A stretch of 64,000 nt of DNA from Chrysomallon squamiferum (GCA_012295275.1 CM022670.1:1736001-1800000); one strand, 5' to 3'; shown: positions 35,680 through 60,790, counted from the stretch's first letter. The notes: generated from the letters alone by a model not told the origin. A program made the numbers and translations.

Positions 35680-38600
35680 CAAGCTTCCCTTTATGGATAT
35701 GCATACTTTTTCTTTACTGTTATTATATTCCCGTCTTTTTACGAAAAAACTGCAAATGTGGACAGATAAGCTGATCATTAGTAATAAATTTCGTAAGTTA
35801 AAAAAATATGTTGAATTTCTAGGAAAAAGAAAAGGAAAGTGGGAATTTCACTTTTCTGTTTATTTCAAGAGATGACTACACCCGGAATAATTTGATAAAC
35901 CCCTTTTATTTGTTTTTATTTTACGATGATTTATTTTTATTATTTTTCCTTATTCCCTTGTTTTTAGGAAAAACTGCAAACAAAGACAACGTTTCGTAAG
36001 TTAGAAATTCTAGGAAATCATTTTATTAACAGTCTTTCAGGAGATGATTACACCCTGTTCTAAAATTGTTTGATATTTAGGAAACCGCGAACGTTTAAAA
36101 TGGAAATCACGTCAATCTTCATTTTATTTCGGTCAAAGTTTAAGTGGAGACGTCAATCTTCATTTTATTTCGGAGAAAGTACACCCGGAATAACTATTTG
36201 AATGTGATCACTGCTTATCATTGGTTGCCATCATCCAATCGCAACAAGCTTGTTATCGCTTCCTTTTCATTGGTCTAGTTCAAAGAACAATACAGTTATG
36301 TCGTCTTCGTAAGAGAGTTACAGCATCTTTTCTGCTCAGTTAACAGGACAGATACAAGGAATCTCATAATATCATTGTAAGTGTATATATATATGTTTTT
36401 TTGAGCTTCAGTATATTTAAAGATAGTAAATATCCAAATCATATAAATACCAAGTATATGTTATAGTAATAAATATAACAAAAATATATGAGGTAAAATA
36501 TGTTATAGTAATTAGGCTTTGAACACTTGAAGAATAAGTACGGAAGGGCGCTAAACTTAATCATGCATAAACAAAAATAATAAAAAGATATTTCTCTTGT
36601 ATGGTTCCAATGTAGTAAGTCTTGAGATACAAAAAGGGTAATGAATTATCCAAGCATTACTTTTTGGATATGCATATTTTTTATTTACTGTTATTATTTT
36701 TCCTTATTCAGTTGGTTCTACGAAAAAACAGCAAACGTGGACAGATAAGCTGATCATTAGTAATATATTTGGTAAGTTACAAAAATATGTTGAATTTCTA
36801 GGAAAAAGAAAAGGAAAGTGGGAATTTTACTTTTCTGCTTATTTCAGGAGATGATTACACCCTGAATTATTTGATAAACCCCTTTTGATTGTTTGATGAT
36901 GAGTTATTTTATGGGAAAACCGCGAACGTGGTTAGAAATGCAAATCATTATTAACAGTCTTCGTAAGTTCTAAAAATATTTAGCGGTCAAAGTTTAAGTG
37001 GAGACGTCAATCTTCATTTTATTTCGGAGAAAGTACACCCGGAATAACTGGTTGAAGGTAATCACTGCTTATCATTGGTTGCCATCATCCAATCGCAAGA
37101 AGCTTGTTATCGCTTCCTTTTTATTGGTCTAGTTCAATGAACAGTATAGTTATGTCGCCTTCGTAAGACATTTACTGAATCTTCTCTGCTCAGTTAACAG
37201 GACAGATACAAGAAATCTCATAATATCCATTGTAAGTGTATATATATATATTTTTTTTGAGCTTCAGTATATTTAAATATCGTAAATATCCAAATCATAT
37301 AAATACTAAGTATATGTTATAGTAATAAATATACCAAAAATATATGAGGTAAAATATGTTATTTAATTAGGCTTTGAACACTTGAAGAATAAGTACGGAA
37401 GGGCGCTAAACTTAATCATGCTTAAACAAAAATAATAAAAAGATATTTCTCTTGTATGGTTCCAATGTAGTAAGTCTTGAGATACAAAAAGGGTAATGAA
37501 TTATCCAAGCATTACTATTTGGATATGCATATTTTTTATTTACTGTTATTATTTTTCCTTATTCAGTTGGTTCTACGAAAAAACTGCAAACGTGGACAGA
37601 TAAGCTGATCATTAGTAATATATTTGGTAAGTTACAAAAATATGTTGAATTTCTAGGAAAAAGAAAAGGAAAGTGGGAATTTCATTTTTCTGTTTATTTC
37701 AAGAGACGACTATACCCGGAATTATTTGATAAACCCCTTCATTGTTTGATGATGAGTCATTTTATGGGAAAACCGCGAACGTGGTTAGAAATGCAAATCA
37801 TTATTAACAGTCTTCGTAAGTTCTAAAAATATGCAGCGGTCAAAGTTTAAGTGGAGACGTCAATCTTCATTTTATCTCGGAGAAAGTACACCCGGAATAA
37901 CTGGTTGAAGGTAATCACTGGTTATCATTGGTTGCCATCATCCAATCGCAACAAGCTTGTTATCGCTTCCTTTTTATTGGTCTAGTTCAAAGAACAATAC
38001 AGTTATGTCGTCTTCGTAAGAGTTACAGCATCTTTTCTGCTCAGTTAACAAGGAATCTCGTAATATCATTATAAGTGTATATTTATTTATTTTTATTTTA
38101 AGCTTCAGTGTATTTAAATATAGTAAATATCTAAATCATATAAATAATAAGTATATGTTATTGTAATAAACATAAACAAATATATGAGGTATAAAATTAA
38201 AATATTTAATTAGGCTTTGAATATTTGAAAAGTAATTACGGAAGGGCGTTAAACTTAATCCTGCTTAAACAAAAATAATGAAGAAATATTTCTCTTGTAT
38301 GGTTCCAATGAAGTAAGTCTTGAGATACAAAAAGGGTAATGAATTATCCAAGCATTACTTTTTATTTATGTATATTTTTTATTTACTGTTATTATTTTTC
38401 CTTATTCCCTTGGTTCTACGAGAAAATTGCAAACGTGGACAAATAGGCTGATCAGTATTGATAGATTTCGTAAGTTCTAAATAATGTTGTATTTCAAGGA
38501 AAAGAAAAAGGAAAGTGGGAATTTCAGTTTTCTGTTTATTTCAACTGATGGCTACACCCTGAATAATTTGATAAACCCCTTCATTGTTGATTCATTTTAC

Positions 38601-38880
38601 GGGAAAACCGCGAACGTAGTCAGATAGGCTAATTATTATTAATAGTCTTCGTAAGTTCTAAAAATATGTAGCGGTCAAAGTTTAAGTTGAGACGTCAGTT
38701 TTCTTTTATTTTGGAGAAACATAGACCCGGAATAATTGGATGAAGGTGATCACTGGTTATCACTGGTTATCATTGGTTGCCATCATCCAATCGCAAACTG
38801 CTTGTTATCTCTTCATTTTTATTGGTCTCTTTGAATGGACAAAATAGTTATGTCGCCTTTTTATTTTAAGCTTAAATGTA
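35680..38880 (+). repeat. Four tandem copies of a ~850-bp unit containing a CCAAT-box promoter-like segment and a splice donor
   Basis: ATTGGTTGCCATCATCCAAT begins at 36220, 37074, 37927 and 38772 (spacing 854, 853, 845). Each is followed by a further ATTGG. GTAAGT donor at 36377 and 37232, mutated to ATAAGT at 38071, deleted in copy 4. Single copies at ~52460-53100 and ~55820-56160. Confidence 0.85.
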
Positions 38881-38990
38881 TTTAACGTCATATATCTGAT
38901 ATTGTAACTCTTCTACTTTTTCTAGGTAAAGATCCGCTAAACCGAAGAGAGAAAAGCATTTCATTATTTAGAAAACGTTATTTATGAATC

Positions 38991-39250
38991 GTGGGCATCA
39001 GCACTGGAATCGACTGCGACTTCGAGTCCGACTCTATGAGACTGAATGGAGATGGCGTCGTCTCAAAGGGAGGTCATCCAGTGTCCATCTCGATACATTT
39101 GAGTCACGGTTATGGGAAAAATGCTCCGTCTCTTGACAAGGACCCAGCTCTTAATGTCCGCTAATGTCTTGAGATAGGAAATGAGATAAGCTGGCTATGC
39201 TCATTCAAGGGTATCTTCTCATATGACGTGATTCAAATGTAAATGCCTAT
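38991..39250 (+). ncRNA. Candidate structured RNA element, copy 1 (multi-stem, G·U-rich)
   Basis: Pairings read by eye: GTGGGCAT (38991) with ATGCCTAT (39243); CACTGGA (39002) with TCCAGTG (39077); GACT-TCG-AGTC hairpin; TACATTTGAGTCACG (39094-39108) with CGTGATTCAAATGTA (39227-39241), extended by TATGGGAA/TTCTCATA and CCAGCT/AGCTGG. Confidence 0.55.
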
Positions 39251-39428
39251 ATTATTGTCCTTGATCTTAGCGTTGCTAGGTTTTGAGTTAAGCTGAATCC
39301 TAACCGGGCGCTTAAATGTATTTAACGTCATATATCACTTGTAACTCTTCCACTTTTTTTGTGGTAAAGGTCAGCTAAACCCAAGAGAGAAAAACATTTC
39401 GTTATTTAGAAAACGTTATTTATGAATC

Positions 39429-58972: not shown

Positions 58973-59477
58973 ACAGCTTTCCGTTTTCATGGTCTCTTAA
59001 TTTATAAATATCATTAAAAGATTTGTTGATTTGTTTGTTGTTGTGTTTTTGTTTTATTTTCAGATTGTTTACAGCATGTTTTGTATGCTTTTCTTGGTGT
59101 CATGGTGAGATTTTCTGTTTGTGAGAGTGTAATTGAGGTTTAATCCACTACTGTGTGAAGTGAAATGTGGAAACTGCAAATACACATATTTAAAAGATAA
59201 TATTTTTGATTCTGATGGCATATTTATATGTCACAATAACTACACTAGTGACTTTCATATTATTGTTGTTGTATTAGTAAGTTAGATATAAATTATTATA
59301 TTCGCCACATACATGCAAAATATCGTTATGTTAATAGTGTTTCGGATATCTCTGCTTATATGCGAGTTATTGCTGACAGTTGAAATTTGTCAGGGAAGAT
59401 ATTGGTAAGGTTATTGAGTTAGATATTTTCAAGTTAGAAAGGAGTTAAAACAAATATTTGTATCTTTCAGAATCCTA

Positions 59478-59974
59478 ATGTCTGAAAATAAACCTTTTAT
59501 ATGTGGAAAATGTTCATTCAAATTTAGAAGATATGAAAATCCCATTTTTATAAAATTCATGTAGCATTGGATGGATCCAGATATTACTGCACTTTGTGTC
59601 TTTTCCGTTGTGCCTACAAGAAAGATCTAAAAAGGCACATTACTAACTATACAGGTCACCTAGATTCAAAGAAAAGAATGGAAGTCAGAGGGAAAGAAAT
59701 AAAGGACAAAGGCTTCTTGAAAACATCTGAAAAACCTTATGAACTTAAAGATGGCGATATTATACATAAATCGTCTTTGACATATCGGGAGAAAAAATCA
59801 AAAATGCGAGGTACGCATTTCCATTACGTGGAAAATGATGACAAATACATGATAAAGAAAGAGAATTCAGTTAGAGACAATGAACGTATAAAAAGACGTC
59901 GGGATGATGAGGATTGTGATGGAAGGAGTGAATGGAAACTGGAAAGTCGGAGTATATTACAAAGTGTTAACTGA
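59478..59974 (+). pseudogene. Paralogous small C2H2-type zinc-finger gene, frameshifted within finger 1
   Basis: ATG 59478 MSENKPFICGKC..., then a 7-nt deletion relative to the 54360 copy. The other frame continues HFYKIHVALDGSRYYCTLCLFRC...RHITNYTGH to the stop at 59974. Lies in a duplicated block, 53870-55320 ~ 58987-60488. Confidence 0.7.
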
Positions 59975-60488
59975 CAGATAATGAAAATGCATATAAAGGG
60001 ATTATGTCACAGACATAAGAATGTAAATACTTGGTAACAATGAAAAATACCCTGATATTTTGTTTTCAGTAATTTTTGTTTTATTTTTGTACCCAATAAA
60101 TGCATTAATCTGAGTATTACTATTTTTGTTTTCTGTTGTTTTTAGATTTATAAAATTTAGTTTTGTTTTACCACATAATTATTACCTGATCATTATTAGT
60201 ACATTTCATCAGTTAAACAAGGAACTGTAGAGTGGCCAGTGTCGAATTCCTACGAAATAGAAAACTAAAGTAGAAATTTTACTTTTCTTTCCAAGAAACA
60301 TATACCCAGAATAATTTGGTAAATACCTTCACTGTTTGGTGATCGTCCAGTCACTGAAAGAACAGATTTTGACTGGAAGATGAGACTAAACGGAGACGAC
60401 GTCGTCTCAAAGGAATTGTCCATCTCGATACATTTAAGTCACGGTAACGAGGAAAATGCTACGTCTCTTGACCTGGACGCAGGTCTCA

Positions 60489-60790
60489 GGGTTCCTTCAG
60501 TTGACAGAGGAAGTGAAGATCCTAGGAACAGAGTGTAGTGACAACGCGTTCTACACAATTGCTGTAACAGGAGGAATATTGGATCGAAAGTGTAAGCTAC
60601 GTCCCAATGATGTGTGTACAGATAAGAACATTTTCCTGCGCCAAGCTGTACAGCTGGAGTTAAGATGCGGTGGACGAGGTTTAACAAGATGTAATCGTGC
60701 TGGAAGTAACAGGTGTCAGTGAAATCGATGTAAATGCTTCAAAGACAGATTAGCGTGCAATTCCCGGTGCCTCACATGCATAAACAAAAA
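60489..60790 (+). mobile_element. Decayed C-terminal fragment of a Ginger2/KRBA2-SCAND3-like integrase-type transposase
   Basis: VPSVDRGSEDPRN, then after a frameshift YTIAVTGGILDR...LRQAV....CGGRGLTRCN....C*NRCKCFK..LACNSRC..CINK. This is the DRG..DPRN motif plus the Cys-rich CKC...CNSRC tail recalled for this family. It has an internal stop at 60720. Confidence 0.72.

What the first reader, a model, noticed from the sequence alone, without database searches (positions are those of the whole stretch)
35680..60490. Thrice-repeated expression cassette: CCAAT promoter, introns, large structured RNA and an exchangeable small Cys/His ORF
Seen in sequence: the same order of parts occurs in cassette A (~35.7-41.4 kb), B (~52.5-55.1 kb) and C (~55.8-60.2 kb). 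The parts are: (1) ATTGG..CCAAT..ATTGG segment; (2) GTAAGT donor and TTTTCTAG acceptor, giving an 84-nt intron in both B (53048-53131) and C (56114-56197); (3) a conserved ~250-nt multi-stem element followed by cassette-specific hairpins; (4) acceptor TATCTTTCAG immediately before a short ORF (40697, 54360, 59478); (5) a shared trailer CATTAATC(G/T)GAGTATT...ACCTGATCATTAT. The ORF in A is unrelated to the zinc fingers in B and C although the flanks are homologous. Inference: a modular Pol II unit delivering a structured RNA (hairpin-RNA/pri-miRNA-like or stable intronic RNA) together with a small nuclear protein, possibly belonging to a selfish or virus-derived element. I recognise no described family with this architecture.
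Basis: partly seen in the sequence, partly recalled or inferred. Interest (0 to 1): 0.85.

Follow-up and report, generated by a model that had tools for sequence, protein, structure and literature searches.

The report
Triplicated retrotransposon-derived zinc-finger gene cluster
Three side-by-side copies of a small zinc-finger gene, each with a promoter-like region and a hairpin-rich leader, sit next to Smc6 in what is probably a mollusc genome; the gene belongs to a little-noticed family that likely began as an extra spliced gene of Gypsy retrotransposons and is predicted, not shown, to bind folded RNA.

Summary
The repeated layout is real, but it is a local head-to-tail duplication, not an exchangeable-cargo cassette. 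ORFs B and C belong to an unnamed double-C2H2 family (E 4e-25, 4e-27). Relatives are multi-copy mollusc proteins: 2 of 63 are fused to RT or integrase in gene models, and one fetched locus reads acceptor–ORF–3'UTR–polypurine tract–TG. So the family is probably a spliced third gene of Gypsy LTR retrotransposons. ORF A is not unrelated. Its exon aligns colinearly with B and C (1/300, 8/300 shuffles), and its tail matches the same Gigantopelta aegis protein as B and C. The 'trailer' follows a poly(A) signal. No LTR, PPT, gag-pol or Helitron end was found, and run depth suggests only the copies seen here. The conserved element's 3' rod folds well (z -3.9) but shows no compensatory change (0 of 50 pairs) and no Rfam match. 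C is frameshifted and B ends early. Splicing could not be tested. Best reading: a host-captured retrotransposon accessory gene in birth-and-death duplication. Boldest reading: a captured Rev/RRE-like protein–RNA module.

The parts
29856..35700 (+). Upstream part of duplication unit A: AT-rich mosaic of older repeats of promoter/intron pieces, homologous to 47456-52500
   Evidence: self-BLAST
35758..38858 (+). A promoter array: four copies (about 854-bp period) of enhancer-like units M1/M2 plus triple CCAAT (36220, 37074, 37927, 38772); intact donors only at 36377 and 37232; copy 4 lacks exon 1 and donor
38859..38925 (+). 3' part of the short intron, with acceptor TTTTCTAG
38978..39247 (+). Conserved element, copy A1; 3' rod 39094-39241 folds at z -3.88
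39416..39685 (+). Conserved element, copy A2 (tandem duplicate, 440-bp period)
39730..40020 (+). A-specific 290-nt branched hairpin (z -10); its middle (39814-39892) matches a dispersed repeat that is also present in RNA contigs
40697..41125 (+). ORF A, 142 aa: eroded Cys/His N-terminus, 36-nt acidic repeat (40887-41084), basic tail shared with G. aegis LOC121374179; acceptor ends at 40695
41294..41422 (+). A likely poly(A) signal and trailer, then the start of an M-like unit
52531..53047 (+). B promoter: M1, M2, triple CCAAT (52891/52906/52940), GATA-, Rel-, ETS- and CRE-like sites (consensus motifs recalled), predicted exon 1
53048..53131 (+). B predicted 84-nt intron
53184..53453 (+). Conserved element, copy B
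53947..53987 (+). B predicted 41-nt internal exon (acceptor ends 53946, donor 53988); the equivalent in C is 59064-59104
53988..54352 (+). B predicted intron 2, ending in the shared acceptor
54360..54626 (+). ORF B, 88 aa, two C2H2 fingers; the family-like C-terminal part lies in another frame up to 54813
54938..55160 (+). B AATAAA, trailer and M1-like unit
55163..55412 (+). Diverged copy D1 of the conserved element
55823..56113 (+). C promoter (M2, CCAAT at 55974 and 56006) and predicted exon 1
56114..56197 (+). C predicted 84-nt intron
56250..56519 (+). Conserved element, copy C
56890..58975 (+). About 3.9 tandem copies of a 543-bp unit, each with a 370-nt fold-back (z -9.6)
59478..59974 (+). 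ORF C, frameshifted near 59536: ATG frame ends after 28 codons; zinc-finger frame 59537-59974
60095..60488 (+). C AATAAA, trailer, M1-like unit and truncated element copy D2

Best explanation
These are three locally duplicated copies of a small zinc-finger gene that likely descends from an extra, spliced gene of mollusc Gypsy retrotransposons, was likely taken over by the host, and is predicted to make a short spliced mRNA for an RNA-binding nuclear protein and a longer RNA that keeps the folded leader. SHOWN: family membership of B and C; the same closest relative (G. aegis LOC121374179) for C's finger frame and for the tails of A and B; head-to-tail arrangement; a piece of the neighbouring Smc6 gene and a fold-back inversion inside the duplicated DNA; frame damage in B and C. 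INFERRED: (1) the family's home is the slot behind integrase in Gypsy elements, read through an acceptor just before its ATG, which the cassettes keep (about 0.8). (2) Copies arose in place by template-switch and unequal-crossover duplication, not by transposition (about 0.8). (3) A TATA-less CCAAT promoter drives transcription; skipping the leader gives a translatable mRNA, while keeping it puts 25 upstream ATGs before the ORF in B (about 0.6). (4) The second, long-helix finger binds structured RNA, its own leader or that of related retrotransposons, as Rev-type export factors do (about 0.3). The cluster is in birth-and-death turnover, and some copies are probably pseudogenes.
For: The family HMM (54 of 63 chosen proteins) hits only B and C among 2946 six-frame segments. 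2 of 63 relatives carry RT/RNase H or integrase C-terminal domains, and a second Mya arenaria model starts with the same integrase tail. Clusters have 5, 11 and 5 near-identical members on several contigs. L001 has its acceptor 8 nt before the ATG, a 1.3-kb 3'UTR and a polypurine tract followed by TAG-TGTAA. Paralogy of A. The zinc-finger core of B vs C has pN 0.105 against pS 0.270, p=0.035. Local-rearrangement marks: Smc6 piece 26105-26817 copied at 48240-48927 and inversion 47881-48241. X1 depth over the element is about 3-4 times that over the ORFs (a rough hint only). The AF2 model is confident (pLDDT 92). Ranks 2-8 of the wide fold search are all proteins seen in RNA complexes (TUT1, U11 snRNP, JAZ, spliceosome, TUT4, pre-60S), at Z 3.4-4.0.
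Against: No junction was observed. The Gypsy link rests on gene-model fusions and one locus with a single putative LTR; no complete element was seen, and only 1 of 110 metagenome candidates was confirmed. ORF A misses the family HMM, and its N-terminus does not align with B (1205/2000 shuffles). Outside the finger core pN exceeds pS (0.20 vs 0.10 and 0.14 vs 0.04). Fold Z scores are in the range the tool calls uninformative, and by sequence the best solved relatives are the DNA-binding proteins Ikaros and CTCF. The rod has 0 of 50 pairs with a change on both sides, and D1 keeps 4 and breaks 8 changed paired positions. Core divergence A vs B (2.6-3.0%) equals that of far-upstream AT-rich DNA (2.5%), so its conservation may reflect recent copying. 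The sister relation to P0004 has weak support (85/53).
Confidence: 0.6

Rival explanations
1. Same origin, no present function: a dead retrotransposon ORF and neighbouring fragments were shuffled and multiplied neutrally in a rearrangement hot spot, and the hairpins are by-products of fold-back duplication.
For: C is frameshifted, B ends early and A is eroded. No compensatory changes. In the 543-bp unit, variable columns are not depleted in stems (27/280 vs 26/180, p=0.13), 12 changes keep and 20 break pairing, and G-U counts are equal on both strands. The region also holds other fold-backs, a satellite and an Smc6 scrap.
Against: Splice signals, CCAAT boxes, poly(A) signal and acceptor-ATG spacing survive in all three copies although the ORFs have diverged strongly. 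Purifying signal in the finger core. The element is less diverged than the pooled flanks in B vs C (3.7% vs 9.7%, p=0.001). A homologue with the same tail is annotated with two isoforms in G. aegis.
Confidence: 0.2
2. The main product is non-coding: the units are Pol II precursors of hairpin/endo-siRNAs or piRNAs against repeats whose pieces lie in the leader, and the ORF is a passenger.
For: Very stable 290-370-nt fold-backs (z -10.1, -9.6). Pieces of dispersed repeats lie inside the leaders (39814-39892, 56595-56814). A 70-nt stretch is inverted between A and B. The promoter is multiplied four-fold in A.
Against: The stems are only about 81-85% complementary in their best stretches. B's spacer folds no better than shuffles (z -1.2). 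No strand or pairing bias in unit C. The dispersed part of hairpin A is mostly its loop.
Confidence: 0.12
3. The cassette is a non-autonomous mobile element (internally deleted LTR element, Helitron-type capture product or KolobokP-like multimer) that moves as a unit and swaps cargo; this is.
For: M-like units occur both before the promoter and behind the poly(A) site of each copy. The ORF family is retrotransposon-linked. A host-gene fragment lies in the duplicated DNA.
Against: No polypurine tract followed by TG. The poly(A) signal lies before, not within, the 3' repeat. No RT, integrase or gag match. No Helitron-type hairpin-CTRR end in 29.5-62 kb under my rule. X1 depth fits only the local copies. 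The cargo is paralogous, not swapped.
Confidence: 0.08

Closest known systems
Ty3/Gypsy LTR retrotransposons with an extra spliced gene; functionally Cer1 CERV of C. elegans (PMC10309623, passages seen)
   Same: A non-env accessory protein made from a spliced mRNA, nuclear and with a Cys finger; CERV is required for export of unspliced RNA, and the paper compares it with HIV Rev.
   Different: CERV is 517 aa, shares exons with gag and has no reported homology outside nematodes. The family here is a double C2H2 ORF behind integrase. The window copies have no gag, pol or LTR. No export function was tested.
Gigantopelta aegis LOC121374179 (XP_041357091.1 and XP_041357090.1; P0004/P0151)
   Same: Best match among 173 proteins for C's finger frame, B's downstream frame and A's last 20 residues; same two fingers and same basic tail motif.
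   Different: 253-275 aa, one locus at 90% identity, uncharacterised. Whether it has the structured leader or sits by Smc6 could not be seen.
Accessory sORF1/sORF2 of MDG1-group retrotransposons (PMC11952523, passages seen)
   Same: Small accessory ORFs of env-less LTR retrotransposons, in some Lepidoptera placed downstream of pol.
   Different: sORF2 is a FAST-like membrane protein; the model here shows two zinc fingers and a helix.
Birth-and-death clusters of transposon-derived or zinc-finger host genes (own knowledge)
   Same: Tandem paralogues of mixed age, with pseudogenes and promoter duplicates.
   Different: The source is a retrotransposon accessory gene rather than gag, env, integrase or transposase, and each copy carries a conserved folded leader.
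KolobokP composite-like DNA transposons of molluscs (PMC9587614, passages seen)
   Same: Direct repeats at both ends and tandem multimers in mollusc genomes.
   Different: [quoted passage not shown] The repeats here are about 45-150 bp and only 70-85% alike, and no such ORF was found.

Membership tests
Unnamed mollusc double-C2H2 family (ORFs B, C) | Match to the family profile with conserved H25, H30, C40, C43, H56, H63 | tested here: met
   E 3.7e-25 (B) and 3.9e-27 (C); columns
Unnamed mollusc double-C2H2 family (ORF A) | Match to the family profile | tested here: not met
   No hit up to E 10
Unnamed mollusc double-C2H2 family (ORF A) | Colinear homology to B/C and shared C-terminal motif with a family member | tested here: met
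   1/300 and 8/300 block shuffles; tail best of 173 proteins, 0/1000 shuffles
Gypsy LTR retrotransposon (the cassette itself) | gag-pol coding remnants | tested here: not met
   tblastn with RT, integrase-tail and gag-like parts of relatives, best E 1.6; 0 of 99 frames hit Pfam at E 0.002
Gypsy LTR retrotransposon (the cassette itself) | Paired TG...CA LTRs with the poly(A) signal inside; polypurine tract before the 3' LTR | tested here: not met
   Purine runs of 13 nt or more lie inside M1 or ORFs, none between ORF end and the 3' repeat; AATAAA precedes the 3' M-like repeat
Gypsy LTR retrotransposon (the cassette itself) | Primer-binding site | not tested
   No host tRNA set available; inspected by eye only, nothing conserved seen
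Gypsy accessory ORF (the protein family elsewhere) | Position between integrase and 3' LTR in complete elements | tested here: inconclusive
   Gene-model fusions and one locus with tract plus TG; no complete element seen
Helitron / Helentron | 3' hairpin followed by CTRR; dispersed copies | tested here: not met
   0 sites in 29.5-62 kb on both strands under a strict rule; Helentron-type ends were not searched
Known structured RNA families (Rfam 15) | Covariance-model match | tested here: not met
   4 matches at E 1.6-4.1 in 34-64 kb, all below gathering and none in the element
Conserved structural RNA | Compensatory base-pair changes | tested here: inconclusive
   0 of 50 pairs changed on both sides, but only 6 close copies
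Matrin/U1-type RNA-binding zinc finger | Fold match and RNA binding | tested here: inconclusive
   Z 3.4-4.0, about 40-57 aligned residues; sequence profile favours Ikaros/CTCF; binding not testable
Hairpin-RNA / piRNA precursor locus | Small RNAs produced from the transcript | not testable with these tools
   No small-RNA or raw-read run available
Spliced Pol II gene | Junction reads and polyadenylated transcripts | not testable with these tools
   Signals predicted from sequence; no RNA holder listed

The most novel reading that the evidence does not exclude
Mollusc Gypsy elements encode an undescribed Rev-like zinc-finger protein that binds a folded RNA element to export unspliced genomes. 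This host captured both halves, the protein gene and a response-element-like leader, as a self-regulating module and amplified it, possibly as a decoy or dominant-negative defence against the parent retrotransposons. The related G. aegis gene would make the capture old and shared among gastropods.
Probability: 0.15. Interest if true: 0.8.

Novelty: new variant of a known kind. Interest (0 to 1): 0.45.

Why it matters
Hosts are known to recruit gag, env, integrase and transposase genes (own knowledge); recruitment of a retrotransposon's regulatory accessory gene is less familiar. The by-product may matter more than the locus. A widespread mollusc family of two-finger proteins appears to be the third gene of Gypsy elements. 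It has no dedicated Pfam model (57 of 63 members without any hit), and none of my 10 paper searches showed a description of it. If it is an RNA-export factor, it addresses how env-less LTR retrotransposons export unspliced RNA outside nematodes, and the folded leader gives a ready candidate ligand to test.

Tried and rejected
No whole genome is held for the window, so a genome-wide module search was impossible. Expression: no RNA holder listed. The three RNA runs hold next to none of the words, and their contigs show no joint at the predicted sites; this is no evidence either way. X4 has four low-depth unspliced contigs on the A promoter array, which could be DNA. X1 is of unrecorded kind and behaves like DNA. 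Word-index protein searches with ORF B, the ORF A N-terminus and the ORF at 60498 found nothing. The Atlas gave unnamed C2H2 clusters for B and nothing for A residues 1-62. Element patterns: 0 hits in metagenome and viral contigs; a 16-mer gave 21 viral loci, 0 of 21 matching my covariance model. Family in viral contigs: 0 of 55 candidates; in prokaryote genomes 1 of 37, a 15-residue match that I did not follow. Foldseek against PDB and BFVD: no match at E 0.001 or better. L001 shares no DNA similarity with the window. No tRNA gene in the window. Hammerhead, HDV, pistol, telomerase RNA and RNase P identities were considered by eye from recalled motifs and through Rfam and dropped. A pseudoknot and a zero-loop palindrome in the 5' half of the element were seen by eye and not tested. 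Paper searches showed no description of this ORF family. The main text of PMC6238403 has 0 occurrences of 'ORF' or 'zinc'. Supplements were not read, and Repbase/Dfam cannot be searched here, so the ORF may be annotated there.

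
Full report
SETTING. The window is AT-rich animal DNA with spliced host genes: a TIR-SAM gene, an HNF-1-type gene and an Smc6-type gene on the minus strand at about 9.5-28.3 kb (the name Smc6 rather than another SMC is my recognition of the sequence). 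No whole genome is held. The host is probably a mollusc. This is an inference: of 29 relatives of ORF B that I looked up, 7 carry a mollusc species name, 1 is named Pol polyprotein, 2 are labelled bacterial MAGs (probably host contamination), 1 is 'hypothetical' and 18 are unnamed.

OBSERVATION. The order of parts is there, and each diagnostic motif occurs exactly three times. The 84-nt introns of B and C have canonical ends. In one B promoter unit, a triple CCAAT arises in 5 of 1000 shuffles, two Rel-like sites in 2, five GATA sites in 18, a CRE-like site in 43 and an ETS site in 123. These consensus motifs are recalled, were chosen after looking, and are uncorrected for multiple tests. The repeat is larger than reported: DNA from 29.9 kb matches DNA from 47.5 kb, with 2.2 kb at 94%. 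A carries four promoter copies; the one beside the element has lost exon 1 and its donor. The shared trailer follows AATAAA in B and C and AATACA in A, and an M-like promoter unit follows it. That is a head-to-tail gene array, not an LTR pair. Contigs of run X1 cover both regions and reproduce A's deletion junction, so the layout is unlikely to be an assembly artefact.

THE PROTEINS. ORF B finds 230 representatives at E 0.001 or better (150 listed), many with one N-terminal match followed by a low-complexity tail. A profile from 54 of 63 chosen members hits B and C and nothing else in the window. Of 63 members scanned, 57 have no Pfam hit; one carries RT plus RNase H and one an integrase C-terminal domain just before the fingers. 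A second Mya model begins with the same integrase tail. Several clusters hold near-identical copies on different contigs, for example 9 of 11 members at 585 aa. The one confirmed metagenome locus, L001 (1 of 110 candidates), has an acceptor 8 nt before the ATG, a 605-codon frame, a 1.3-kb 3'UTR, a polypurine tract at 3154 followed by TAG-TGTAA, then TATA and AATAAA. I infer a spliced third gene of Gypsy elements; no complete element was seen. B and C have their ATG 7 nt behind the acceptor, so the acceptor is likely inherited.

ORF A IS A PARALOGUE. It misses the profile, and its 5' part does not align with B (354/500 DNA shuffles, 1205/2000 protein shuffles). Its 5' part aligns weakly with C (11/500), its 3' part and UTR with B (2/500) and C (13/500), and the whole exon with B (1/300) and C (8/300) under block shuffles. 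Its last 20 residues score best, among 173 proteins, against G. aegis LOC121374179 (52, next 40; 0/1000 shuffles). That protein is also the best match for C's finger frame (218, next 192) and, narrowly, for B's downstream frame (52, next 50); for ORF B itself it is second (169 against 174). In a 61-row tree B and C join it with weak support (85/53). The 'exchangeable cargo' is thus better read as one fast-changing gene.

STATE OF THE ORFS. C has a 7-nt gap near 59536 that ends the ATG frame after 28 codons; B stops at 88 codons, with family-like sequence continuing in another frame. X1 has 55 other letters in place of 89 at 54601-54691; they were not printed. In the 48-codon finger core pN is 0.105 and pS 0.270 (p=0.035); in two other blocks pN exceeds pS, and in a 14-codon block pS is larger. 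The ORF region is the most diverged part of B vs C (16.9%, against 8.8% in intron 2). AF2 models are confident (pLDDT 92 for relative P0007, 88 for B). The wide fold search ranks an archaeal-virus finger first (Z 4.3), then proteins from RNA complexes at Z 3.4-4.0. These scores are low, and sequence profiles favour Ikaros and CTCF. RNA binding is a lead, not a result.

THE RNA. The element has no Rfam match. The whole element folds at z -1.8 on + and -0.7 on -; the 150-nt 3' rod with a three-way junction folds at z -3.88, with 0 of 200 shuffles as good. Among 6 copies, 0 of 50 pairs change on both sides, 6 vary on one side only and 9 depart by unpaired cells. It is less diverged than the pooled flanks in B vs C (3.7% vs 9.7%, p=0.001), but no less than far-upstream DNA in A vs B (2.6-3.0% vs 2.5%), and other B/C segments are as conserved (2.4-4.1%). 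So selection is not shown. The cassette-specific fold-backs are strong in A (z -10.1; -8.5 on the other strand) and C (z -9.6) and absent in B (z -1.2). Among C's four tandem units, changes do not avoid stems (p=0.13). Parts of the leaders match dispersed repeats. In B no strong donor lies between 53132 and 53950, so the element is either in an 856-nt exon with 25 upstream ATGs or is skipped by splicing to 53947 or 54353. That two-isoform logic, with a small finger protein from the fully spliced RNA and a folded element in the retained part, resembles Rev/RRE (own knowledge) and Cer1 CERV (PMC10309623, passages). It is analogy only.

MOBILITY. No gag-pol remnant, no tract-TG boundary and no Helitron-type end were found. 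Summed X1 depth is about 180-200 over the element and about 45-95 over the ORFs; the element contig has 149 against 35-69 for the other listed contigs over 300 nt, apart from one promoter-repeat contig at 139. This fits the four local copies, although the tool warns that depth is no copy number. A 720-bp piece of Smc6 at 90% identity and a fold-back inversion in B's upstream DNA point to local template-switch duplication (inference).

LITERATURE. Ten searches showed no description of this family. I saw passages only of PMC6238403, PMC10309623, PMC11952523, PMC9587614 and PMC2836005; no supplements were read, and repeat databases were not available.

VERDICT. This is a real feature, partly misread. 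It is most likely a host-captured Gypsy accessory gene multiplied in place (0.6), with neutral relic (0.2), small-RNA precursor (0.12) and mobile unit (0.08) as rivals. New variant of a known kind; interest 0.45.

Noticed in passing
L001:58-1872 and 3154-4094; proteins P0021, P0110, P0156, P0133: A widespread mollusc double-C2H2 family without a dedicated Pfam model appears to be a spliced third gene of Gypsy LTR retrotransposons; its second finger weakly resembles RNA-binding matrin-type fingers.
   Followed up: partly
window 48240-48927: A 720-bp copy (90% identity) of an internal piece of the neighbouring Smc6-type gene (26105-26817), next to a fold-back inversion at 47881-48241.
   Followed up: partly
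window 41592-47443: A 5.9-kb satellite of 58-bp monomers between cassettes A and B; a 27-nt piece resembles 55586-55612.
   Followed up: no
window 30018-30800: An insertion present in unit A only, with short inverted ends and a FLYWCH-domain frame on the minus strand (30250-30540); a likely DNA-transposon fragment.
   Followed up: partly
window 60489-60790: A Cys-rich coding fragment that truncates element copy D2; it recalls the C-terminus of KRBA2/Ginger-type integrases (from memory; only a weak Pfam TCR hit).
   Followed up: partly
window 55226-55242 and 39049-39064: A 16-nt palindrome in the 5' half of the element, perfect in D1/D2 and kept through G-U pairs in A, B and C, with alternative pairings that could form a pseudoknot or a dimer contact.
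   Followed up: no
window 40168-40236 vs 53700-53769: A 70-nt stretch lies in opposite orientation in the leaders of A and B (83% identity), so their RNAs could pair.
   Followed up: no
window 39814-39892, 40106-40139, 56595-56814, 59017-59059, 60793-60892: Short pieces matching many contigs of X1 and RNA contigs of X2-X4; dispersed repeats, not identified.
   Followed up: no
window 855-2207 (-) and 4135-4617 (+): Host genes: a TIR plus SAM domain protein and an HNF-1 N-terminal domain protein.
   Followed up: no
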